Source: a virus (taxonomy: Duplodnaviria; Heunggongvirae; Uroviricota; Caudoviricetes). Taken from it: a stretch of DNA of 22,620 nt. Below the pieces are notes generated by a model. The model did no database searches and was not told the origin of the DNA. It saw nothing but the letters and a program-made list of their open reading frames with translations. Position 1 is the first letter of the stretch. Each line of letters opens with the position of its first letter. The stretch is taken from IMG/VR virus record IMGVR_UViG_3300045988_014132, positions 1 through 22,620 of that record; one strand, 5' to 3'. A program made the position numbers and the translations under genes. Shown one piece after another: positions 2,890 to 22,620 of the stretch.

Positions 2890-3213
2890 ATGAAGATGCC
2901 AGAAAAACATGACCTGTTAGCCGCCATTCTCGCGGCAAAGGAACAAGGCATCGGGGCAATCCTTGCGTTTGCAATGGCGTACCTTCGCGGCAGATATAAT
3001 GGCGGTGCGTTTACAAAAACAGTAATCGACGCAACGATGTGCGCCATTATCGCCTGGTTCATTCGTGACCTTCTCGACTTCGCCGGACTAAGTAGCAATC
3101 TCGCTTATATAACGAGCGTGTTTATCGGCTACATCGGTACTGACTCGATTGGTTCGCTTATCAAACGCTTCGCTGCTAAAAAAGCCGGAGTAGAAGATGG
3201 TGGAAATCAATAA
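2890..3213 (+). CDS. S: Class I holin S (S107 antiholin / S105 holin dual start)
   Basis: 107-aa ORF starting [22 protein letters not shown]; essentially the lambda S protein as recalled; Met1-Lys2-Met3 dual-start motif present. Confidence 0.95.
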
Positions 3214-3673
3214 TCAACGTAAGGCGTTCCTCGATATGCTGGCGTGGTCAGAGGGAACTGATAACGGACGACAGAAAACCAGAAATCATGGTTATGACGT
3301 CATTGTAGGCGGAGAGCTATTCACTGATTACTCCGATCACCCTCGCAAACTTGTCATGCTAAACCCCAAACTCAAATCAACAGCAGCCGGACGTTACCAG
3401 CTTCTTTCCCGTTGGTGGGATGCCTACCGTAAGCAGCTTGGCCTGAAAGATTTCTCTCCGAAAAGCCAGGACGCTGTGGCATTGCAGCAGATTAAAGAGC
3501 GTGGCGCTTTACCGATGATTGATCGCGGTGATATTCGTCAGGCAATCGACCGTTGCAGCAATATCTGGGCTTCACTGCCGGGCGCTGGTTATGGTCAGTT
3601 CGAGCATAAGGCTGACAACCTGATTGCAAAATTCAAAGAAGCTGGCGGAACGGTCAGAGAGATTGAGGTATGA
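3197..3673 (+). CDS. R: Endolysin R (lambda-type lytic transglycosylase)
   Basis: 158-aa [27 protein letters not shown]...; matches lambda R in length and sequence as recalled; start overlaps the 3' end of S. Confidence 0.95.
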
Positions 3674-4137
3674 GCAGAGTAACCGCGATTATCTCCGCTC
3701 TGGTTATCTGCATCATCGTCTGTCTGTCATGGGCTGTTAATCATTACCGTGATAACGCAATCGCCTACAAAGAGCAGCGTGATAAAAAAGTCAGTGAGCT
3801 GAAGCAGGCGACCGCCACCATTACTGACATGCAGCAACGCCAGCGTGCTGCTGATGCACTCGATGCTAAATACACGAAGGAGTTAGCTGATGCGAAAGCT
3901 GAAAATGATGCTCTTCGGCGCAAGCTTGATAATGGTGGCAGGGTGCTCGTCAAAGGAAAATGCCCTGTGCCATCCTCAGCCGAAACCTCCAGCGCCTCCG
4001 GCATGGGCAATGATGCCACCGTCGAACTCTCTCCAGTTGCTGGACGAAACGTTCTCGGTGTCCGGGACGGAATTATCCGCGACCAAACAGCACTGAGAAC
4101 GCTTCAGGAATACATCAGGACGCAATGCCTTCGATGA
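3670..4137 (+). CDS. Rz: Inner-membrane spanin subunit Rz (i-spanin)
   Basis: 155-aa ORF; N-terminus [31 protein letters not shown] is lambda Rz-like with one TM helix; C-terminal half differs from lambda Rz; ATGA overlap with R. Confidence 0.9.
3890..4096 (+). CDS. Rz1: Outer-membrane spanin subunit Rz1 (o-spanin lipoprotein), embedded in the +1 frame of Rz
   Basis: 68-aa ORF wholly inside Rz in another frame; signal peptide with lipobox VAGC ([21 protein letters not shown]) followed by proline-rich [11 protein letters not shown]; classic embedded spanin architecture. Confidence 0.8.
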
Positions 4138-12080: not shown

Positions 12081-12311
12081 ATGACACACATGATCTTTCG
12101 TCATGGCGACATGAAGAAGTGGAAAGGCGTTGGCTACGACTTTGAAATCGTGAAAGCCGAAGAGCTTCAGGAATATCTGGATGCTGGTTGGTTTTCACAT
12201 CCTGATGACCTTTTGAAGGATGTTGCAGAGCCAGAGCCAGAAGAAAAACAGCGTAAAAAGCCTGGTCGAAAACCTAAGGCGGCAGCAGATGAACCTGACA
12301 ACGAAGGGTGA
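12081..12311 (+). CDS. Hypothetical protein (76 aa) with Lys/Pro-rich, acidic-flanked C-terminal tail
   Basis: GGAGA at 12071-12075, 5 nt before ATG 12081; [32 protein letters not shown]...[23 protein letters not shown]; the longer track ORF from 12033 would begin inside the terminator, so 12081 is preferred; 3' end overlaps gp4 start by 23 nt. Confidence 0.6.
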
Positions 12312-12789
12312 TTTAGTCCTTGCAGCATTACGTAAGCTCGGTGTTGCATCAAATGCCACGTTAACCGATGTCGAACCGCAGTCTATGGAAGACGGGGTCA
12401 ACGACCTTGAAATGATGATGGCTGAATGGCTTGGCGGTGATGCGTCACCTGGGATCAACGTTGGCTACATTTTCGCTGATGCAGATGTCGCTCCAGATCC
12501 GGGTGATGAGCACGGTTTATCAAATAACGCTATCAATGCCGTCATTTTCAACCTTGCCTGCCGCATTGCTCCAGATTATGCGCTGGAAGCCTCTACAAAA
12601 CTTATAACCACTGCCAGATACGGGAAAGAGCGACTCGTCAAACTGTCTGCAATGGACAGAGCAAAAGCCGCTAAATGTAAGTCCGGTTATCCAAACCGTA
12701 TGCCTGTTGGTAGCGGTAATCAGTTGGCGAAGTGGAACGGTTGGAATTACTTCCACCGGAAGGAACCTTGCGATAACGGGAGCGAATAA
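12289..12789 (+). CDS. 4: Head completion / tail adaptor protein (P22 gp4-like)
   Basis: Track ORF starts at 12220, but P22 gp4 (166 aa) aligns from the internal Met: [33 protein letters not shown]...; AAGGCGG upstream of ATG 12289. Confidence 0.8.
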
Positions 12790-14208
12790 ATGCCGATTCA
12801 GCAACTTCCGCTTATGAAAGGTGTCGGCAAAGACTTTCGAAACGCCGACTATATCGACTATCTGCCAGTGAATATGCTGGCAACCCCCAAAGAAATCCTC
12901 AACAGCAGTGGATATCTTCGCTCATTCCCTGGCATTGCCAAACGCTCTGATGTGAACGGTGTATCTCGCGGCGTCGAGTACAACATGGCGCAGAGTGCTG
13001 TTTATCGCGTGTGTGGTGGGAAGCTTTACAAAGGCGAAAGCGAAGTCGGTGACGTCTCCGGAAGTGGTCGCGTATCAATGGCGCATGGTCGGACATCTCA
13101 GGCTGTAGGCGTTAATGGTCAACTGGTAGAGTATCGTTATGATGGCACGGTTAAAACCGTCTCAAACTGGCCTACAAACAGCGGATTCACGCAGTATGAG
13201 TTAGGCTCGGTCCGCGACATTACGCGCTTACGTGGGCGTTATGCGTGGTCAAAAGACGGAACTGATTCATGGTTTATCACTGACCCTGAAGACGAATCGC
13301 ATCCTGACCGCTACAGCGCACAATATCGTGCCGAGTCGCAGCCTGACGGCATCATCGGAATCGGAACATGGCGAGACTTCATCGTCTGCTTTGGTTCATC
13401 GACGATTGAATATTTCTCCCTGACTGGTGCAACCACCGTTGGTGCCGCGTTGTATGTCGCACAGCCATCGCTGATGGTGCAGAAAGGTATTGCCGGGACT
13501 TACTGCAAAACGCCGTTTGCTGATTCGTATGCGTTCATCAGCAATCCGGCAACAGGTGCGCCGTCTGTATACATCATCGGCTCCGGTCAGGTATCACCAA
13601 TCGCCAGCGCGAGCATTGAGAAAATTCTCCGCTCCTACACTGCTGATGAACTGGCTGATGGTGTGATGGAATCGCTGCGATTTGATGCGCATGAGTTGCT
13701 GATTATCCACCTTCCGCGCCATGTTCTTGTTTACGACGCATCTTCAAGCTCCAATGGTCCGCAATGGTGTGTACTGAAAACAGGCCTGTATGACGATGTG
13801 TACCGCGCTATCGACTTCATTTACGAAGACAATCAGATAACGTGCGGCGATAAACTGGAATCGGTTACCGGCAAATTGCAGTTCGATATCAGCAGCCAGT
13901 ACGACAAGCAACAGGAACACCTGCTGTTTACTCCGTTGTTCAAAGCGGATAACGCCAGAGTTTTCGACCTTGAAGTTGAATCTTCAACTGGCGTTGCGCA
14001 GTATGCTGACCGCCTTTTTCTCTCTGCAACCACTGACGGCATCAATTACGGGCGTGAGCAGATGATTGAGCAGAATGAACCGTTCGTTTACGACAAGCGT
14101 GTTTTGTGGAAGAGAGTAGGGCGCATCAGGAAAAATGTCGGCTTCAAATTGCGCGTTATCACGAAGTCACCTGTCACTCTGTCTGGCGCTCAGATAAGGA
14201 TTGAGTAA
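12790..14208 (+). CDS. 10: Tail hub / head completion protein (P22 gp10-like)
   Basis: 472-aa ORF (P22 gp10 length) [49 protein letters not shown]...; strong match to P22 gp10 as recalled. Confidence 0.9.
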
Positions 14209-15056
14209 TGGCGGATTCGAATCTCAATGTGCCTGTAATCATTCAGGCTACACGGCTCGACACATCAGTCCTTCCACGCAATATCTTCTCGCAGTCGTAT
14301 CTGCTTTACGTTATCGCACAGGGAACTGATGTTGGTAACGTGGCTAACAAGGCCAACGAGGCCGGACAGGGCGCTTATGATGCACAGGTCAGGAACGATG
14401 AGCAGGATGTGATTCTCGCTGACCATGAGCAGCGAATTTCTGCTGCGGAAGCAACGCTTGTTAATCATGAGGAGCGAATCAGCCAGGCAGAATCAACCCT
14501 TCAGGAACATGAAACACGAATAGCTCAGAATGAAAGCGATATTGCGTCGCTTGATACCAGAGTTCAGTCGCTGGAATCGCAGGTTTCAGACCATGAAACG
14601 CGCATTGATGCTCTGGAGTATGCCACTACTCGCAAAAAGTCAGAGGTTGTTTACTCTGGCGTATCAGTAACCATCCCGACAGCGCCGACCAACCTTGTTA
14701 GCCTGCTGAAAACGCTCACGCCGTCATCAGGCTCGTTGGCACCATTCTTCGACACCGTTAACAACAAGATGGTTGTGTTCAACGAGAACAAAACCTTGTT
14801 CTTCAAGCTGTCGATCGTCGGGACGTGGCCCAGCGGAACCGCCAACAGGTCAATGCAGCTAACATTTTCCGGTTCTGTTCCTGACACACTGGTAAGCAGT
14901 CGCAACTCGGCGACAACAACCGATAACATCTTGTTAGCTACGTTCTTCAGCGTGGATAAAGACGGCTTTCTTGCCACAAATGGCAGTACGTTAACTATTC
15001 AGTCAAATGGGGCGGCGTTTACTGCCACAACCATCAAGATAATCTCGGAGCAGTAA
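14208..15056 (+). CDS. 26: Tail needle (P22 gp26-like) with extended C-terminal knob domain
   Basis: N-terminus [43 protein letters not shown] matches the gp26 needle; heptad-like repeats (HEQRIS, HEERIS, HETRIA, HETRID) in the shaft; 282 aa versus 233 aa in P22, so an added C-terminal knob as in Sf6/HK620-type needles. Confidence 0.85.
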
Positions 15057-15513: not shown

Positions 15514-16206
15514 ATGTTATATGCATTTAAGCTTGGCAGAAAACTGCGCGGCGAGGAACCTTATTGCCCTGAAAAAGGCGGGAAAGGTGGCAGCTCTGAT
15601 AAAAGCGCAAAGTATGCAGCAGAAGCTCAGAAGTATGCCGCAGACCTGCAAAATCAGCAGTGGCAGACGATCATGAAAAACCTTGCTCCGTTCACGCCTC
15701 TTGCGGAGCAGTATGTTAACCAGCTTCAGAACCTTTCCAGTTTAGAAGGTCAGGGGCAGGCACTTAATCAGTATTACAACTCTCAGCAGTATAAAGACCT
15801 TGCAGGTCAGGCTCGTTACCAGAGTCTTGCTGCTGCGGAGGCGACTGGCGGACTTGGTTCGACAGCTACAAGCAATCAACTGGCTACGATTGCTCCGACT
15901 CTCGGTCAGTCGTGGTTATCAAACCAGATGAGCAATTACAACAATCTGGCAAACGTTGGGCTTGGTGCGCTGCAAGGTCAGGCAAACGCTGGGCAGACAT
16001 ACGCCAACAACATGAGCAGCATTGCACAGCAAAGTGCAGCACTTGCCGCTGCTAATGCCAATAAACCATCAAGTCTTCAGACTGCAATTAGCGGTGGCAC
16101 GTCTGGTGCGATTGCCGGTGCAGGTCTTGCCAGTCTTTTGGGAACATCAACGCCTTGGGGCGCTGGCATTGGTGCTGGTATCGGATTGCTTGGCTCGTTG
16201 TTTTAA
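15514..16206 (+). CDS. Ejection (internal virion) protein, P22 gp7-like
   Basis: 230-aa ORF (P22 gp7 is 229 aa); Gln/Asn-rich, with Gly/Ala-rich hydrophobic C-terminus (GAIAGAGLASLLG...GAGIGAGIGLLGSLF); synteny. Confidence 0.75.
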   Translation: MLYAFKLGRKLRGEEPYCPEKGGKGGSSDKSAKYAAEAQKYAADLQNQQWQTIMKNLAPFTPLAEQYVNQLQNLSSLEGQGQALNQYYNSQQYKDLAGQARYQSLAAAEATGGLGSTATSNQLATIAPTLGQSWLSNQMSNYNNLANVGLGALQGQANAGQTYANNMSSIAQQSAALAAANANKPSSLQTAISGGTSGAIAGAGLASLLGTSTPWGAGIGAGIGLLGSLF

Positions 16207-16215
16207 GGGGTAATC

Positions 16216-17547
16216 ATGGCTACTTGGCAAGGAACAAACGGCGGATTGTTGGCTGGTATCGGTGGTGTCAACTCAAACGCTCCGAGCGTAAATGACATCG
16301 GCAATACGCTTCAGCTTATCAGGCGGAACAATGATATTGAGCGTTCAGGCGCTAACAATGTTGGGCTGACTGCTTTGCAAGGCCTTTCAGGTATTGCGGG
16401 GGTGTTTCAGCAGGAAAAGCAGGCTCAGCGGCAGAAAGAATTTCAGCAGGCATACGCTAATGCTTATGCGTCTGGTGATCGCGGTGCTTTGCGTCAGTTG
16501 GCTACTCAATATCCAGACCAGATTGAATCCGTTCGTAAAGGCATGGGATTCATTGATGAAGACCAGCGTAATTCTATCGGCACCTTAGCGGCTGGCGCAC
16601 GCCTTGCGTCATCGTCTCCAGAAGCAATGCAATCATGGCTGCAAAACAACGCCGGTGAGTTAGCTCGTGTTGGCGTTAATCCTCATGACGTCGCTCAGAT
16701 GTACCAACAGAACCCGCGGCAGTTCGGCGAATTTGTCGATCACCTGGGGATGAACAGTCTCGGGCCCGAAAAATACTTTGACCTACAGGATAAAATGCAG
16801 GGTCGCCAGGTTACCATGCGCGGTCAGGATCTGGATTCGCAAACCGCCGCTCGGAATCAGGCAATCACAATGCGCGGACAAGATATCCAGGCGAATTTAG
16901 GTCAGCAGCGCATTAATCTGGACGCAGAAACAAACCGCATTAACAACGAAAATAAGCGCCTTGACCGGATGCTATCAGCAGAAACTAACGACCTGAAGCG
17001 CCAGGAAATACAGAGCCGCATAGCAGCCAACAACCAGCAGTTGCAGCAGAAGCAGCAAGCGCTAAATGATGGCTACAAAGACGGCATCAACACCCTCACA
17101 ACCAGCATGTTCACTCTGAACGATATCGTTAGTTCTCCTTCACTTAAGAGCATTACAGGCTTACGTGGAGTAATCCCCAACGTTCCAGGCTCACAGGCTG
17201 CAGACACTCAGGCACGACTTGATACCTTTAAATCACAAGCATACCTGACAGCGGTTCAGGCCATGCGAGGCATGGGCGCACTTTCTGATGCCGAGGGCAA
17301 AAAGCTCGACCAGGCTGTTGGTTCGCTGCAGAACTCGCAGAGCGAGGAGTCCTTTCGTCGCAACGCTGGCGTCATCCTGAACACGCTCAACCAGAAGCGT
17401 AATGAGGCGGTTGGTAAGTACGTTCAGCAAAACGGTATCAAGCGAGTGGAAGCGCCTCAGGCTTCTATAGATTACCTGAAGCAGCACCCCGAGCTGTCAA
17501 TCGACTTCATTAATCGCTACGGATATCTTCCATCTTTGGGGCAGTAA
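16216..17547 (+). CDS. Ejection protein, P22 gp20-like
   Basis: 443-aa ORF in the gp20 position; Gln-rich, coiled-coil-like segments; synteny. Confidence 0.7.
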   Translation: MATWQGTNGGLLAGIGGVNSNAPSVNDIGNTLQLIRRNNDIERSGANNVGLTALQGLSGIAGVFQQEKQAQRQKEFQQAYANAYASGDRGALRQLATQYPDQIESVRKGMGFIDEDQRNSIGTLAAGARLASSSPEAMQSWLQNNAGELARVGVNPHDVAQMYQQNPRQFGEFVDHLGMNSLGPEKYFDLQDKMQGRQVTMRGQDLDSQTAARNQAITMRGQDIQANLGQQRINLDAETNRINNENKRLDRMLSAETNDLKRQEIQSRIAANNQQLQQKQQALNDGYKDGINTLTTSMFTLNDIVSSPSLKSITGLRGVIPNVPGSQAADTQARLDTFKSQAYLTAVQAMRGMGALSDAEGKKLDQAVGSLQNSQSEESFRRNAGVILNTLNQKRNEAVGKYVQQNGIKRVEAPQASIDYLKQHPELSIDFINRYGYLPSLGQ

Positions 17548-20283
17548 ATGGCTAATTACCGTGATTTGTTAGAGCAGGCTGGCGCACGTTACGGTGTGCC
17601 AGAAGGGTTGATGACTGCACTGGGTGCCAAGGAGTCTTCTTACAACCCTGCCGCAGTAAGCTCCGCCGGGGCTGTAGGATTGACTCAGGTCATGCCTGGG
17701 ACATGGCGTGATATGGGTTATACCGATGAGCAAATGCAAAACCCCGAATATCAGGCTGACGCTGGCGCGCGCTATCTGGCAAAGATGTACCAGCAGTTTG
17801 GTAACTGGCGTGATGCTCTTCAGGCTTATCACGACGGTCCCGGCAACGTTATGAAGGCAAAGCGTGGTGAATATACGCCAGGACCTGAAGGCCGCGGTTA
17901 CGTTGATGATCGCTTTGCTCAATGGGCGGGTGACCCGGTGACAGACTCAACAGTCGAACAGCGCGCCACCTCTGCAAAGGTACATCCTCAGCAAGACCCT
18001 AACAACCCGTTTGCACAACTGGAAGCACAGTCATCCGAACAAGTATCGGCATCAGGTGTGCAGTCAGACCCAAATAATCCATTTGCTCAGATTGAGCAGC
18101 AGGCAGCCAGTCAGCAGCCACCTCAACCCGTAAGTTCTGTCGCACCGAAACCTGTTCAGCAACAAACAGTTAATCAGGCCAATAATGAATCAGCACGTGA
18201 AGAACCATCATTGATACAACAAGCTGGCGATTGGCTCACAGGTGGTCAAAGTGCAGGGCAAATTGCAGAGCAGGCTGGTCGTGGTCTGGTAAACATACCA
18301 TTTGACGTATTGCAGGGTGGCGCAAGTCTGATTAATGCAATCAGCCAGGGGCTTGGTGGCCCCAAGGTTTTGGACGATGTCTATCGTCCAGTAGATCGAC
18401 CGACAGACCCTTACGCGCAAGCTGGAGAGTCAATAGGCGGTTATCTTGTTCCTGGAGCAGGAGTAGCTGGAAACATGGTCATTGGTTCTCTCGCTGACGC
18501 GGCGAATCAACGGGGTGATTTTGCCGAAAATGCCGCTATTAATGCCGGACTTAACATTGCTACGCATGGCCTGATAAATGGCGTTACCCGTGGTGTTCGT
18601 GGTGCATCAAATATAATTAGTGGCAATAAAACATCTGCACAGAGAGCGACCACTGCGCCAACAGAAACATCACCATTCTCCGGTGATGCCGCTGCAGCAA
18701 CAAATCCTGCGGTTCATGCCGCAGAGGCAAGAGTAGCACAAGGTGTACCAATGACGCCTGCGACGAGGAACCCAGAGGAAGTCGTTCGCACAGTAGCAGC
18801 ACAAAAAAGGCCAAATCTCGCTTCATCGCTTGATGAACTAGATATCAATCCTCAGGCTGAAGTTCTGGAGTCTGCTGAAAGGCTTAATGTTGATTCATTA
18901 CTCCCTTCACACTTTTCCGGGAACGAGCAATACAAGGCAGTTGAGCAAGCAATCAAGTCCCGTGCGGGTTCTGCTCTACAGGTGCAGGAAAATGAAGCAA
19001 TCAGGCAGCTAGCACAGGGCGCGGGGGAGATAATTGATCGCGTTTCCGGTGCAAAAGATGCTCTTGGTATGAGCGACAAGTTTATTGATACGGTCAATGG
19101 AAGAATGTCTGCGCTGATGAAACGAAGCGACCAGCTTTATCGCAATGTTGAAAAGGCGATGCCTGCAGGTGCAAAAATTGATGCGCCATCAACAAGGTCA
19201 ATGCTCAAACAGGTGGCAGAAGATCTTGGCGGGATGAAAAACCTTGACCCTATTGAAAAGAGAGTCTTTCGGGCAGTTAATCCAGGCAAGAACGGCGCAT
19301 TAACTTATGCAAATCTCAATAAGCAACGACGACTTGTTGGCGATGCACTTCATAAGAATTCTGGACCATATAAAGATGCTGATCGCGCTGCTTTATCGAG
19401 GCTTTACGGTTCGCTCGCCGATGATCAAAAGGCGGCGCTGTCAGAGACAAATGCATTACGTGATTTTGAAGTTGCTCAGAGGCTTGTTCAGATGCGAAAA
19501 AGCATGGAAGAGCAAATGATTAATCTAACTGGCAGAACGCTGAACGGTGATGTTTCTCGCAAAGCAACTACAGCACTACAGGCAATGTCGAAAGGCGATG
19601 CCAAAGGATTTCGTGAATTGATGCAAAACACGCCGTCCAGGAAGCTAAGAACCGAGCTACTGGGAACAGGTCTTCGGGATATGCTTTCGAACGGAAAACG
19701 TGGCGCTGATTTTAATCCTGCAGGGTTTGCTGACTGGTATCAAAACATGTTAGCAAACGGGCAGATGCGCAATCTTGCCCGACATTTACCAAAAGAGACT
19801 ATGTCAGGTCTGAACGATGTATATAAGGTCGCAAAGGCTATCAAAGACGCAAAATCTTACGAGATAACTACAGGAAGACTAAACGAGTTCGTCAAACGGT
19901 TTAATCGCGTCACTGCGGCAAATGAATTTGTTGCCAACCATGCCCAACGCATTGGCACTGCGGTTGGTTCAACTGTGTCAGGACCGTTCAGTGCAGTAGG
20001 TGCTGTTGCTGGGTCAGAAATTGGGGCAAAAGTCGCCAGCAAAATCAGGGCGATGGGCGGCGCTGCATCAATGGAATCTGCAGAAAAGCTAATTAGCTCA
20101 CCAGAATTCCAGAAAGCAGCAAGGCTGGCAGTAAAACAAGCACCAGAAAGCATCGTTGATACAACTGTAAGACGCTCTTCTGCTTGGCGCTCGTTTTACA
20201 ACTCACTTCCAGAATCAGATAAGAAAACCATATCAAGGCTAGGCATCATGTACTGGATGAACAGTGATGATAACCAGAAGTAA
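17548..20283 (+). CDS. Ejection protein (gp16 position) with N-terminal lytic transglycosylase (SLT) domain
   Basis: 911-aa ORF; N-terminal [33 protein letters not shown] ... AYHDGPGNV matches the family-1 SLT catalytic region (Glu-Ser ... GLxQ ... AYNxG); followed by low-complexity Gln/Pro region and a long helical C-terminus. Confidence 0.8.
17995..18096 (+). repeat. Two copies of an in-frame 30-nt unit encoding DPNNPFAQ(L/I)E within the gp16-like gene
   Basis: gaccctaacaacccgtttgcacaactggaa (17995-18024) and gacccaaataatccatttgctcagattgag (18067-18096) encode the same decapeptide with mostly synonymous differences. Confidence 0.8.
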
Positions 20284-20300
20284 CGGAAAGCCACGGATGG

Positions 20301-20594
20301 TTAGTTGCTGTCTTTTTTATATAAATCTCTGAGCGTATCAAAGACAATTTTCTTTACCATATCGGATTGTTGGTCTGCCATACGCTCTGCATCGTCAATG
20401 TAAACTGGTGCAGAGCTTTGTTTAGCCAATGATTCTTCAATCGCTGCAATTATCTCTGAGTTCAGCGACCTGTTATTCATCTTCGCACACTGCTTAATTT
20501 TCGCGTGGAGTTCATGCGGAAGTCTCAAGTGAAACTGCGCCTCGTCGTATTTGCTGTACATCCTTGATGCCTCACCAGTTGGGTGGAATGGCAT
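20301..20594 (-). CDS. mnt: Mnt-like ribbon-helix-helix repressor (Arc/MetJ superfamily)
   Basis: 97-aa - strand ORF; N-terminal RHH motif (FHLRLPHELHAKIKQCAKMNNRSLNSEIIAAIEESL) and C-terminal DAERMADQQSDMVKKIVFDTLRDLYKK closely resembling the P22 Mnt tetramerisation tail as recalled; convergent with the ejection operon, divergent from the tailspike. Confidence 0.8.
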   Translation of the reverse strand: MPFHPTGEASRMYSKYDEAQFHLRLPHELHAKIKQCAKMNNRSLNSEIIAAIEESLAKQSSAPVYIDDAERMADQQSDMVKKIVFDTLRDLYKKDSN

Positions 20595-20682
20595 CGTAAC
20601 CTACTGGATAAATACTCAATAGTACCATTTCGGTATGCAATCACATCATGGTTGCATCATATCATTCGTCTGGAGCAATGAA
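20595..20682. promoter_or_regulatory. Divergent mnt / tailspike control region with candidate operator
   Basis: 88-bp AT-rich intergenic region; inverted repeat ATGCAA (20635-20640) N11 TTGCAT (20652-20657); GGAG at 20672-20675 serves the tailspike ATG. Confidence 0.45.
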
Positions 20683-22620
20683 ATGTCAGATATCACCGCA
20701 AATGTTGTGGTAAGCATGCCTTCGCAACTCTTCACTATGGCTCGTTCTTTTAAAGCCGTAGCCAATGGCAAAATTTATATCGGTAAAATTGACACTGACC
20801 CGGTAAACCCTGAAAACCAGATTCAGGTTTATGTGGAGAACGAAGACGGCTCTCATGTTCCTGTTTCGCAACCAATCATCATTAACGCTGCTGGTTACCC
20901 AGTATATAACGGACAGATTACCAAATTCGTAACTGTACAAGGCCATTCTATGGCTGTTTATGATGCGTATGGTTCCCAGCAGTTCTATTTTCCTAATGTG
21001 CTGAAGTATGACCCTGACCAATTAAGACAAGAGCTAGCGGGTCCAAATGGATATCTTCTAATCCCATCGATGGATCAGCATATTAAAATTCAGCAGTGGA
21101 GAGAAGAGGGTGACATTCGCGGATGGGGTGCTATTGATGGAGAGTTCAACGATGCTGCTGTATCCGCTGCATTAGACTCTGAATCTCCTAGCGTTAAACT
21201 TGGTGGCGTCGGATTCGTTTCAAAACTTCGCTCACCTATTAACCACAAAAGTAATAAAGTGATGCATAGCGGGTCATTAAACTTTCAATTTGATGGCGGA
21301 ACTCAGCAAGAGAAATCCGGGATACTTATGGCTAACATCTCCAACGCCAAAGTGATTGATGTTGATATAACAGGCACCCTGGATGGAGGAATTCGTGGGT
21401 ACGGTGGCAGCAATATCGTTATAGACGGCGTGAATGTTCACGATATTGGAATTTCAACGCTATCCGGTGAGTGCGGCATAGGAATATGGTTCGGTGATTA
21501 TGCAAACTACGATGTACAGACGGATGGGCTGTTAATTCAAAATTGTAATATCAAAAATATTGGAGGTGTAGGGATACAGCGTGGGGATGGCATCCTGGTT
21601 TATAACGCGAAAAATTTCAAGGTAAGGTATAACACCATCATTACAACCAATAGGATGGCTATTGCAGCTGGAAGTGATACTAGGCAGTTTGAGATTCATG
21701 GAAACTACATAGGTGATACGCTATTAGCTGGTATAGATATTGAGCCTGACGAAGGTTACACTGCTTCAAATTTCAAGATATACAATAACAATATTATCGG
21801 ATTTGCTGCACGATACTTCACTCAAGGATCTGGTGTTGGTCAAACCTTTGGTATAGATACTCATGCTAATACCTCATATGGCAAAGTGTATAAAAACACA
21901 TTGTCTGCAGGACAGTATGGAACAGAAGCATTTCATATAGGAAACCATGCGGATGAGATTGAAGTTACGGATAACAACCTGATTGGCGGTGCTGTTGTAA
22001 TCCCATTATTCATCAAGACATATGATGGTAGTGGTAGTAAACACATCAAAATAAACCGCAACAGGGCAAAAGGGACGTGTAAGTCATTTGCAGATGTAGC
22101 CATGTCTGAAGATGTTTATATTTCTGAAAATGTATTCTCTGGCAATAGTTCTAATGATAGTTATTTCCTGAGAGCGTCAACAATAGCAGGGCTTAATGTT
22201 GACTACAACCGGTCAAGCAACACAACCAATTTCATCAAGTCTGGTGACGCTGGAAACACGTCAAGCGTGAAGGTCACTAATAATAACGCTTCTACCCTTT
22301 CAGATGGTATAGACATGCTAACGTCGGGTTCCATGACTGGTTTTATTGCTTCTGGCAACACTATTTTATGTCCAGCATCCAACAAAGGAATTTCACTGGA
22401 AGTAGCAGGTTCAGGTTCTATTTCAGACATTAGTCTCCGTGGCAACATAATTTATAATGCTACAACCAAAATATATGTATCACCAGCTGCCACGGGATGG
22501 GATATGTTAACCAAAAATACCAGGTTTGATCTGTCTGGAGTTCAAAATGGCACTCAGCTATTTGAACTATCAAGAAATAGAGTTACACAGTTTCTTAACA
22601 ATGCTTGGTATGATGGCTAG
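20683..22620 (+). CDS. 9: Tailspike: P22 gp9-like N-terminal head-binding domain fused to a divergent parallel beta-helix receptor-binding domain
   Basis: Start taken at the internal Met ([50 protein letters not shown]...VLKYDPDQ), matching the conserved gp9 head-binding domain; downstream sequence unlike P22 gp9 but has beta-helix-like repeated N/G/I-rich rungs; TAG stop is 22618-22620, the final bases of the window. Confidence 0.85.

What the first reader, a model, noticed from the sequence alone, without database searches (positions are those of the whole stretch)
17548..20283. Third ejection protein is about 300 aa longer than P22 gp16 and starts with a lytic transglycosylase domain
In the gp16 position there is a 911-aa protein (P22 gp16 is 609 aa as recalled). 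Its first ~120 residues carry the SLT catalytic signature (KESSYNP ... [10 protein letters not shown] ... AYHDGPG). A Gln/Pro-rich linker with two DPNNPFAQ(L/I)E repeats follows, then a long helical body. An ejected murein hydrolase fused to the trans-envelope channel protein would couple peptidoglycan cleavage to DNA delivery, a domain arrangement not found in the P22 prototype.
Basis: partly seen in the sequence, partly recalled or inferred. Interest (0 to 1): 0.55.

Follow-up and report, generated by a model that had tools for sequence, protein, structure and literature searches.

The report
P22-like ejection protein with lytic transglycosylase head
The third DNA-ejection protein of this P22-like phage really does carry an intact cell-wall-cutting (lytic transglycosylase) domain at its front end that P22 itself lacks. 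However, the same gene is already deposited and annotated (Shigella phage Sf101 and dozens of E. coli prophages), and the design is the one long known from phage T7 gp16.

Summary
ORF 17548..20283(+) encodes 911 aa in the gp16 slot, after gp7 and gp20 homologues. Residues 7-110 match Pfam SLT (E=3e-25). Glu29 aligns with the catalytic Glu478 of Slt70 and Glu37 of T7 gp16. Two DPNNPFAQ(L/I)E motifs sit in a Q/P/S-rich linker, and the rest is predicted helical. P22 gp16 (609 aa) and HK620 gp16 (722 aa) have no such domain.

It is not new. The gene is 99.6% identical in DNA to Sf101 gp13, deposited as 'transglycosylase'. The SLT segment is present in 68 of 5426 complete E. coli genomes, where PGAP names it 'lytic transglycosylase domain-containing protein'. 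Divergent SLT-gp16 fusions occur in prophages across Enterobacterales. The architecture copies T7 gp16.

- Only about 170 of the 302 extra residues are SLT plus linker. The rest comes from a longer body.
- The SLT/linker module travels as one mosaic block with a particular 443-aa gp20 variant, while the gp16 body recombines freely. The twin linker motif is conserved at peptide level.

[quoted passage not shown] No enzymology exists for this protein.

The parts
15514..16206 (+). gp7-type ejection protein (230 aa), first of the three ejection genes
   Evidence: Pfam P22_gp7 E=1.8e-134; PHROG 598
16216..17547 (+). gp20-type ejection protein, 443-aa variant. It is inherited together with the SLT module of the next gene.
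   Evidence: Pfam Inj_translocase aa 10-225, E=1e-67. It is 99% identical to IME10 gp20 but only 32% to P22 and HK620 gp20. Its C-terminal DNA is found in 67-69 E. coli genomes, against 68 with the SLT DNA, and the junction is found in 66.
17548..20283 (+). gp16-type ejection protein, 911 aa, with an N-terminal lytic transglycosylase
   Evidence: ORF. 99.6% nt identity to Sf101 gp13, with 6 aa differences. PHROG 770 'DNA transfer protein' aa 108-864, E=8e-160. 31% overall identity to P22 gp16.
17548..17922 (+). SLT / family-1 lytic transglycosylase domain (aa 1-125)
   Evidence: Pfam SLT aa 7-110, E=3.3e-25. AF2 pLDDT is about 90 over aa 1-110. Foldseek probability is 1.00 to T7 gp16 N-terminus 7k5c_B, MltE, MltF and Slt.
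17632..17634 (+). Codon GAG for Glu29, the predicted catalytic acid (KES motif)
   Evidence: Aligns with Slt70 E478 and T7 gp16 E37. The ES...GLxQ motif is kept in 89 of 89 SLT-bearing clusters among the top 120 homologues.
17923..18198 (+). Q/P/S-rich linker, predicted disordered (aa 126-217). Its right end is the recombination joint of the N-terminal module.
   Evidence: Composition. pLDDT mostly below 50. DNA homology breakpoints to IME10 at 18165, to L009 at 18152 and to L011 at 18207.
17995..18024 (+). Linker motif copy 1, [10 protein letters not shown] (aa 150-159)
   Evidence: Conserved in divergent Klebsiella, Shimwellia and Cronobacter homologues.
18067..18096 (+). Linker motif copy 2, [10 protein letters not shown] (aa 174-183)
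   Evidence: 7 of 10 codons differ synonymously from copy 1. In IMG/VR, 45 of 48 contigs have the exact DNA pattern twice at a fixed 72-nt spacing, always inside SLT-gp16 ORFs.
18199..18582 (+). Conserved gp16 core (aa 218-345), Gly/Ala-rich and mildly hydrophobic. This is the part shared with P22 and HK620 gp16.
   Evidence: Near-invariant columns from aa 219 to about 330 across P22, HK620, Dewey and Sf101. 94% nt identity to HK620 and 76% to P22. Highest hydropathy windows are aa 247-265 and 298-316.
18583..20283 (+). Sf101-type gp16 body: a variable segment (aa 346-430), a confident helical domain (aa 431-775), a Gly/Ala-rich segment (aa 776-840) and a C-terminal tail
   Evidence: AF2 pLDDT 80-95 for aa 431-775. 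95.6-98.4% nt identity to SLT-less gp16 genes in L009 and L011. 28% identity to the Kosakonia phage Kc237 body. No PDB fold match for the body.
16230..18165 (+). Mosaic block: gp20 variant plus the gp16 N-terminal SLT/linker, exchanged as a unit
   Evidence: blastn breakpoints against P22, HK620, IME10, Dewey, L009 and L011. Co-occurrence counts in E. coli genomes.

Best explanation
This is the gp16-family ejection (pilot) protein of a P22-like temperate podovirus. In this lineage a family-1 lytic transglycosylase (SLT) domain and a disordered linker replace the short N-terminal module of P22 gp16.

Inferred mechanism, by analogy with T7 gp16:
- About a dozen copies are packaged in the head. 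After adsorption they are expelled through the portal and tail channel, following gp7 and gp20.
- The N-terminal SLT domain refolds in the periplasm and cuts glycan strands locally, with Glu29 as the catalytic acid. This opens the murein mesh where the gp20 tube must pass.
- The conserved Gly/Ala-rich core and the helical body engage the inner membrane to complete the DNA conduit.
- As in T7, the enzyme is probably dispensable on fast-growing cells and helpful on cells with denser, more cross-linked murein (stationary phase, low temperature).

The SLT/linker is a mobile module. It is inherited together with one gp20 variant and is fused to at least three different gp16 bodies.

Shown here: the domain, its catalytic motifs, the fold, the synteny, the mosaic structure and the distribution. 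Inferred: packaging and ejection, periplasmic location of the N-terminus, enzymatic activity, and the conditional benefit.
For: Domain and catalytic residues:
- Pfam SLT E=3.3e-25.
- E29 aligns with Slt70 E478 and with T7 gp16 E37 at 28% identity over 130 aa.
- Motifs ES, GLTQ and AYHDG are conserved in homologues down to about 40% identity in Serratia, Pluralibacter, Klebsiella, Cronobacter and Shimwellia.

Fold:
- The AF2 SLT domain has pLDDT of about 90.
- The best Foldseek hits are T7 gp16 (7eyb_I, 7k5c_B), followed by MltE, MltF and Slt, with probability 1.00 for 7k5c_B and the cellular enzymes and 0.84 for 7eyb_I.

Identity as gp16:
- Gene order is gp7-gp20-this gene.
- aa 218-345 are near-identical to P22 and HK620 gp16.
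- PHROG 770 matches.
- Homologues carry Pfam PF26808 Phage_P22_gp16.

Not the lysis enzyme: a separate holin, endolysin and Rz cassette lies at 2890-4137.

Real and widespread:
- Found in Sf101, APC_JM3.2, IME10, Dewey, Huey and phiKp_30.
- Found in 68 complete E. coli genomes and 48 IMG/VR contigs.

Module mobility: the identical aa 1-206 are joined to 797-, 875- and 911-aa proteins, and the same body occurs without SLT.

T7 precedent and virion copy numbers: PMC8954989, PMC5380687 and PMC8402733.
Against: There is no biochemical or genetic evidence for this protein or any P22-like homologue. Activity, packaging and topology are all inferred. P22 and HK620 infect efficiently without the domain, so it cannot be essential to the mechanism. 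P22 virions are reported to carry another murein hydrolase activity (gp4), and this window also encodes gp4, so the SLT may be redundant. The AF2 model is low-confidence for aa 140-430, so how the domain connects to the channel is unknown. The full text of the 2026 in-situ P22 channel study could not be read, so the position of the gp16 N-terminus in the assembled channel is not confirmed.
Confidence: 0.8

Rival explanations
1. The SLT domain is mainly a structural or anchoring element rather than a working enzyme. It would grip peptidoglycan or decorate the gp20 tube, like the 'wings' that the T7 gp16 N-terminal domain forms on the gp15 tunnel. Catalysis would be irrelevant.
For: In T7 the domain is an integral part of the periplasmic tunnel (PMC8954989), and 7k5c_B is a top fold hit. 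The SLT/linker co-inherits with one gp20 variant, which fits a binding role. P22 and HK620 need no such enzyme.
Against: The catalytic Glu and all three family-1 motifs are strictly kept across lineages at 40-60% identity. This is not expected if only the fold mattered. T7 E37 mutants have a conditional entry defect, according to the literature summarised.
Confidence: 0.1
2. The diversity of gp16 N-terminal modules, including this SLT type, is driven mainly by escape from prophage superinfection-exclusion systems (SieA-like) that target gp16 and gp20. On this view the SLT is a passenger of a gp20/gp16-N block selected for other reasons.
For: SieA escape maps to gp16 and gp20, and HK620 ejection genes confer partial resistance (PMC10883804). 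gp20 plus gp16-N behaves as one exchangeable block. The SLT DNA is at least 99% identical in 67 of 68 genomes despite different bodies, which suggests recent spread.
Against: The escape changes lie in the C-terminal regions of gp16 and gp20, not the gp16 N-terminus. The SLT fusion is old and is maintained in divergent genera with different linkers. This rival explains the mobility of the module, not why it carries an intact enzyme.
Confidence: 0.06
3. It is a 'lytic tail fiber protein' or tail-associated lysin, as the RefSeq/PHROG label says, or a lysis enzyme acting from within at the end of infection.
For: NC_027398 and PHROG 21143 carry the name 'lytic tail fiber protein'.
Against: The gene sits in the gp16 slot, and 75% of its length is homologous to gp16 ejection proteins. 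The tailspike is a separate gene at 20635 onward with a Head_binding domain. The window has its own holin, endolysin and Rz cassette. PHROG 21143 is only 576 positions long and matches aa 1-573 of this protein, the length of the truncated or partial copies.
Confidence: 0.02

Closest known systems
Shigella phage Sf101 gp13 (KJ832078 'transglycosylase'; NC_027398 YP_009153087.1 'lytic tail fiber protein') and Escherichia phage APC_JM3.2
   Same: This is the same gene: 911 aa, 99.6% and 99.3% nt identity, 6 amino-acid differences from Sf101, and the same flanking gp7, gp20 and mnt genes.
   Different: The surrounding phage is mosaic. This window has an Sf6-type 282-aa knobbed tail needle where Sf101 has a 212-aa needle, and its tailspike differs.
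Phage P22 gp16 (609 aa) and HK620 gp16 (722 aa): the P22 gp16 ejection protein family (Pfam PF26808)
   Same: Same gene position, and a near-identical core at aa 218-345. The body is homologous but divergent, at 31-33% overall identity.
   Different: P22 and HK620 have short N-terminal modules of about 35 and 60 aa without any SLT domain. The body here is about 130 aa longer net.
Phage T7 gp16 (internal virion protein D), N-terminal lytic transglycosylase domain
   Same: An SLT domain sits at the very N-terminus of the largest ejection protein. It shows 28% identity with the catalytic Glu aligned, and it is the top structural neighbour. A non-globular segment follows the domain, which in T7 tapes gp16 to gp15.
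   Different: The remaining 690 aa show no detectable similarity to the T7 gp16 body (best BLASTP E=3.3). T7 forms an ordered internal core, whereas P22-like phages do not.
E. coli Slt70 and the MltE/MltC/MltF family-1 lytic transglycosylases (GH23)
   Same: The catalytic domain fold and the motifs ES, GLxQ and AYxxG.
   Different: Those are cellular housekeeping enzymes with signal peptides, lipoprotein anchors or superhelical domains. No NCBIfam equivalog cutoff is reached.
IME10-type (797 aa) and Dewey/Huey-type (875 aa) SLT-gp16 proteins; the Kosakonia phage Kc237 1044-aa ORF
   Same: IME10 and Dewey have identical aa 1-206, covering the SLT domain and the twin-motif linker. Kc237 has a 56% identical SLT domain on an Sf101-like body.
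   Different: The cores and bodies differ. Kc237 carries NVFDQF motifs instead of DPNNPFAQ.
P22 gp4 (tail accessory factor), reported as the virion-associated murein hydrolase of P22
   Same: It is a candidate means for P22-like virions to breach peptidoglycan. A gp4 homologue is also encoded here at 12220-12789.
   Different: gp4 is a neck protein with no recognisable hydrolase domain. The SLT here is a canonical enzyme domain on an ejected protein.

Membership tests
Family-1 lytic transglycosylase (Pfam SLT PF01464 / GH23) | Sequence match to the SLT profile above the curated gathering score | tested here: met
   88.4 bits against a cutoff of 21.3, E=3.3e-25, aa 7-110 covering profile positions 2-110 of 117
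Family-1 lytic transglycosylase (Pfam SLT PF01464 / GH23) | Catalytic Glu in the E-S motif at the end of the second helix | tested here: met
   E29-S30. E29 aligns with Slt70 E478 and T7 gp16 E37.
Family-1 lytic transglycosylase (Pfam SLT PF01464 / GH23) | Motifs II (G-L-M/T-Q) and III (A-Y-N/H-x-G) | tested here: met
   GLTQ at aa 44-47 and AYHDG at aa 93-97, conserved in homologues
Family-1 lytic transglycosylase (Pfam SLT PF01464 / GH23) | Goose-lysozyme-like alpha-helical fold | tested here: met
   AF2 pLDDT is about 90 for aa 1-110. Foldseek probability is 1.00 to MltE, MltF, Slt and T7 gp16-N.
Family-1 lytic transglycosylase (Pfam SLT PF01464 / GH23) | Non-hydrolytic cleavage of MurNAc-GlcNAc bonds that gives 1,6-anhydroMurNAc | not testable with these tools
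   Needs enzyme assays on sacculi with muropeptide analysis
P22 gp16 ejection protein family (Pfam PF26808 Phage_P22_gp16; PHROG 770) | Third gene of the gp7-gp20-gp16 ejection cluster, between gp14 and the immI/tailspike region | tested here: met
   the same order is seen in P22, HK620, Sf101, IME10 and Dewey
P22 gp16 ejection protein family (Pfam PF26808 Phage_P22_gp16; PHROG 770) | Sequence homology to P22 gp16 over the core and body | tested here: met
   aa 218-345 are near-invariant with P22 and HK620, and overall identity is 31%. PHROG 770 E=8e-160. PF26808 is recorded for close homologues, but the local Pfam copy lacks that model, so the window protein itself was not scored against it.
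P22 gp16 ejection protein family (Pfam PF26808 Phage_P22_gp16; PHROG 770) | Packaged in virions and released before DNA; needed for DNA entry | not testable with these tools
   Known for P22 (PMC8402733, PMC10883804); not examined for this protein
T7 gp16 / internal virion protein D family (PHROG 342) | N-terminal lytic transglycosylase domain with a catalytic Glu | tested here: met
   PHROG 342 E=3.4e-24 over aa 3-238; 28% identity with E29 aligned to E37
T7 gp16 / internal virion protein D family (PHROG 342) | Homologous body of about 1100 aa that forms the core stack and the cytoplasmic hub | tested here: not met
   BLASTP of aa 218-911 against T7 gp16 aa 229-1318 gives a best E of 3.3. The PHROG 342 match stops at aa 238. 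The full-length Foldseek match to 7eyb_I has TM 0.12. The protein works like T7 gp16 at its N-terminus but is not a member of that family.

The most novel reading that the evidence does not exclude
The SLT domain, its linker and the C-terminal part of the 443-aa gp20 may form a co-adapted periplasmic sub-assembly. This would be a P22-like counterpart of the T7 gp15:gp16-N tunnel. In it the twin DPNNPFAQ(L/I)E motifs would act as docking 'tape' for gp20, or for a host periplasmic protein. The evidence does not exclude this. The motif pair is kept at peptide level despite saturated synonymous divergence. It has a fixed 24-residue spacing and occurs only in this module. Other SLT-gp16 lineages carry different paired aromatic mini-motifs (GPWEKYQ, QPWAQ, NVFDQF). 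The module almost never separates from its gp20 variant, although physical adjacency alone could explain that linkage.
Probability: 0.3. Interest if true: 0.5.

Novelty: already known. Interest (0 to 1): 0.3.

Why it matters
How P22-like phages get their DNA conduit through the murein layer is not settled. The only activity assigned in P22 is to gp4, a neck protein with no recognisable hydrolase fold. A leading review states that the ejection-protein transglycosylase is absent from P22-like phages.

The data here show that statement is too broad. About 1 in 10 of the E. coli genomes with a detectable P22-like gp16 gene (68 of 661) carry a canonical, catalytically intact SLT on gp16. Nature also provides near-isogenic comparisons: the same gp16 body with and without SLT, and the same SLT on three bodies. 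Some carriers are cultivable on E. coli K-12 (Dewey and Huey).

That makes the contribution of a virion murein hydrolase to podovirus DNA entry, and the gp20-gp16 interface, directly testable. As a discovery it is modest. The gene and its annotation already exist, and the principle is the T7 one.

Tried and rejected
Literature that could not be read:
- Casjens & Thuman-Commike 2011, the key comparative paper on P22-like ejection proteins, is not held by DOI or PMID.
- Iglesias et al. 2023 (J Mol Biol) is not held.
- For the 2026 in-situ P22 channel preprint only the abstract is accessible.
- I therefore cannot exclude that the SLT-gp16 variant is mentioned in those papers. Full-text searches for P22-like, gp16 or ejection protein together with transglycosylase found only the review that denies it. 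The Huey/Dewey/Louie and BASEL papers do not mention it.

Analyses that gave nothing:
- NCBIfam has no equivalog or gp16 model that matches. There are only sub-threshold hits to cellular lytic transglycosylases.
- A Foldseek search of the whole model found no solved structure for the helical body.
- No similarity was found between the body and the T7 gp16 body.
- The DNA repeat search found no DNA-level duplication behind the two peptide motifs. This led to the synonymous-difference check.

Considered and rejected:
- Sequencing or assembly fusion artefact. The ORF is intact in independent phage isolates and in many chromosomes.
- Lysis enzyme. A separate lysis cassette exists.
- Tail fibre. 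The position and the homology argue against it.

The resemblance of DPNNPF to the NNPW part of the colicin E9 TolB-binding epitope comes from memory only. It was not tested and is treated as a possible coincidence.

Not run: the search of protein representatives and a second AF2 job, because they were judged unlikely to change the verdict.
Full report
**1. The observation**

The window is the late region of a P22-like temperate podovirus. In order it encodes:
- antirepressor, YbcO, RusA and Q;
- holin, endolysin and Rz;
- small and large terminase, portal, scaffold and coat;
- gp4, gp10, an Sf6-type knobbed needle and gp14;
- three ejection genes, a Mnt-like repressor on the other strand, and a tailspike.

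The third ejection gene is ORF 17548..20283 (+), 911 aa. Its ATG directly follows the TAA of the gp20 homologue. Pfam SLT matches aa 7-110 at 88.4 bits against a cutoff of 21.3, E=3.3e-25.

They lie in a linker (aa 126-217) that is 18% Gln, 12% Pro and 12% Ser.

P22 gp16 is 609 aa. Neither it nor HK620 gp16 (722 aa) has any Pfam hit. In alignment they lack window residues 2-164.

One refinement is needed. Only about 170 of the 302 extra residues are the N-terminal module. The rest are net insertions in a longer, divergent body.

**2. What the N-terminal domain is**

- E29 aligns without gaps to the catalytic Glu478 of E. coli Slt70.
- It also aligns to Glu37 of T7 gp16, at 28% identity over 130 residues. 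That alignment extends into a shared EGR(G/N)Y segment.
- An AlphaFold2 model built on 43 homologues gives pLDDT of about 90 for aa 1-110.
- The best Foldseek hits in the PDB are T7 gp16 in the core (7eyb_I) and in the ejectosome tunnel (7k5c_B). MltE, MltF and Slt follow. Probability is 1.00 for 7k5c_B and the cellular enzymes, and 0.84 for 7eyb_I.
- The ES, GLxQ and AYxxG motifs are retained in every SLT-bearing homologue examined, down to about 40% identity.
- By sequence and predicted fold this is an intact family-1 lytic transglycosylase. Activity itself cannot be tested here.

**3. What the rest is**

- Residues 218-345 are almost invariant between this protein and P22, HK620, Dewey and Sf101 gp16.
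- PHROG 770 'DNA transfer protein' covers aa 108-864.
- Close homologues carry Pfam PF26808 Phage_P22_gp16.
- AF2 predicts a confident all-helical domain for aa 431-775. Confidence is low for the linker, the conserved Gly/Ala-rich core and a second Gly/Ala-rich segment at aa 776-840.
- No segment reaches classical transmembrane hydrophobicity. The highest 19-residue Kyte-Doolittle mean is 1.2.
- The body has no solved structural neighbour and no similarity to the T7 gp16 body.
- So the protein is a member of the P22 gp16 family. It works like T7 gp16 only at its N-terminus.

**4. It is already in the databases**

- The gene is 99.6% identical in DNA to Sf101 gp13 and 99.3% to a gene of phage APC_JM3.2. 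It differs from the Sf101 protein at 6 residues.
- GenBank KJ832078 calls the Sf101 gene 'transglycosylase'. RefSeq calls it 'lytic tail fiber protein'. The RefSeq name comes from a PHROG and is misleading.
- The SLT-coding DNA occurs in 68 of 5426 complete E. coli genomes, always chromosomal. In 67 of them it is at least 99% identical, and it is named 'lytic transglycosylase domain-containing protein'.
- For comparison, 661 genomes match the conserved gp16 core.
- A search of 5.8 billion proteins found SLT-plus-gp16 fusions in E. coli, Shigella, Serratia, Pluralibacter, Klebsiella, Cronobacter and Shimwellia.
- Kosakonia phage Kc237 has an unannotated 1044-aa version.

**5. Mosaic anatomy**

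Residues 1-206 are identical in three proteins:
- IME10 (797 aa, with a different core and body);
- Dewey (875 aa, with an HK620-like body);
- Sf101 and this window (911 aa).

Conversely, the Sf101-type body occurs at 95.6-98.4% DNA identity behind P22-type or HK620-type short N-termini.

blastn breakpoints place the right edge of the module at window 18152-18207 (aa 202-220). The left edge is not at the gene start. It lies inside or before gene 20, at 16230 or 16752.

In E. coli genomes this gp20 C-terminal variant is found in 67-69 genomes, the SLT segment in 68, and the junction between them in 66. So gp20 (the 443-aa type) and the gp16 N-terminal module move as one block, while the gp16 body recombines.

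This fits a physical gp20/gp16-N interaction, as in the T7 gp15:gp16-N tunnel described in PMC8954989. Adjacency alone could also produce it.

**6. The linker motifs**

- The two DPNNPFAQ(L/I)E copies differ at 7 of 10 codons synonymously and at one conservatively. No DNA-level repeat is detectable.
- Both copies persist in Klebsiella, Shimwellia and Cronobacter homologues whose flanking linker sequence has diverged.
- A degenerate DNA pattern for DPNNPFAQ hits 48 IMG/VR contigs. In 45 of them it occurs twice at exactly 72-nt spacing. Every occurrence lies inside an SLT-gp16 ORF.
- The 797-aa form is the commonest there (21 complete copies, against 4 of 911 aa).
- Other SLT-gp16 lineages have different paired aromatic mini-motifs. 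Serratia and Pluralibacter have GPWEKYQ twice before the SLT domain and QPW(A/T)Q after it. Kc237 has NVFDQF twice.
- The function of these motifs is unexplained. A docking role is my hypothesis.

**7. Mechanism**

- The protein is packaged. P22 carries about 12 copies of gp16 (PMC8402733).
- It is ejected after adsorption, and its N-terminal enzyme opens the murein locally so that the trans-envelope conduit can form.
- The core and body engage the inner membrane.
- It is probably conditionally beneficial rather than essential, because P22 and HK620 lack it and because the T7 domain is needed only with highly cross-linked murein.
- It is not the lysis enzyme, since a full lysis cassette is present.

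The rivals are a structural or anchoring role without catalysis, a passenger of exclusion-driven module exchange, and a tail fibre or lysin. They are scored lower for the reasons given in their entries.

**8. Novelty**

The kind, a virion-internal ejection protein with an N-terminal lytic transglycosylase, has been textbook since T7. This exact gene is deposited and annotated.

The literature I could search never discusses it. [quoted passage not shown] A 2017 review lists gp4 as the P22 virion lysin. I could not read Casjens & Thuman-Commike 2011, which may mention it.

My verdict is that the finding is real and correctly interpreted, but already known at database level and ordinary in principle. 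The modest value lies in correcting an over-generalisation and in the natural module swaps that make experiments easy.

Noticed in passing
window 17995-18024 and 18067-18096: The twin linker motif DPNNPFAQ(L/I)E is conserved at peptide level: 7 of 10 codons differ synonymously between the copies. The 24-residue spacing is fixed in 45 of 48 IMG/VR contigs, and the motif is found only in SLT-gp16 proteins. Its function is unknown.
   Followed up: partly
window 16230-18165 (gene 20 plus the 5' part of gene 16): The 443-aa gp20 variant and the SLT/linker of gp16 behave as one recombination block. The junction is present in 66 of about 68 E. coli genomes that carry either part, while the gp16 body downstream is exchanged freely.
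   Followed up: yes
L007 20001-22736 (E. coli 2018-05-5CC, NZ_AP027886): PGAP flags this gene as 'incomplete; missing C-terminus' and calls only 573 codons. The DNA nevertheless encodes an uninterrupted 911-aa ORF, 99% identical to the window. This looks like an annotation artefact, probably caused by truncated reference proteins.
   Followed up: partly
P0016-P0020; L013, L022, L043, L045; PHROG 21143: Copies of about 567-576 aa are common. In four IMG/VR contigs the ORF ends at a stop codon after 576 aa, whereas the Shigella flexneri database entries are labelled partial. PHROG 21143, the source of the name 'lytic tail fiber protein', is 576 positions long and matches aa 1-573 of this protein. 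The cause of the truncation was not examined.
   Followed up: no
L006 5902-9036 (Kosakonia phage Kc237, MW258710): A 1044-aa GTG-started ORF encodes SLT plus a gp16 body. The record annotates only the 3' 746 codons as 'lytic transglycosylase' and places two small spurious CDS over the real SLT region.
   Followed up: partly
L003 5001-7394 (phage IME10, NC_019501): The 797-aa SLT-gp16 gene is left entirely unannotated in the IME10 records.
   Followed up: partly
P0027-P0032, P0036-P0039, P0041 (type B); P0043, P0054, P0055, P0057 (type C): Other SLT-gp16 lineages put a prefix before the SLT domain. One is a prefix of about 45 aa with two GPWEKYQ-like motifs. The other is a mini-domain of about 45 aa (MDVxLPxG...VPEGT...) that resembles the P22 gp16 N-terminus (KVTANGKTFNFPDGTS). 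This suggests that in those lineages the SLT was inserted after the ancestral N-terminal module.
   Followed up: partly
P0050 (884 aa): An SLT-less gp16 with an HK620-type N-terminus carries a different insert of about 90 aa at the same N-terminal position (GNIDLKNRPIVRNKDGSISTV...HLGMF...). It has no Pfam or specific PHROG match. The gp16 N-terminus seems to be a hotspot for accessory domains.
   Followed up: partly
window 14208-15056: The tail needle is the 282-aa Sf6-type with a C-terminal knob (Pfam Phage_tail_NK, E=2e-116). Sf101, which shares the gp16 gene, has a 212-aa needle. This is another mosaic joint close to the ejection genes.
   Followed up: no
window 20284-20700: Only 17 nt separate the gene 16 stop from the convergent Mnt-like repressor gene (20301-20594, minus strand). 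There is no sieA, hkcB or hkcC between gene 16 and the immI region, unlike P22 and HK620. The listed tailspike ORF probably starts at the internal Met (MSDITANV, about 20683), where the Head_binding domain begins.
   Followed up: no
window 3197-3673: The ORF in the endolysin position (158 aa) has no Pfam-A hit at E<=0.01 but matches PHROG 90 'endolysin' (E=3e-63). Its catalytic type was not determined.
   Followed up: partly
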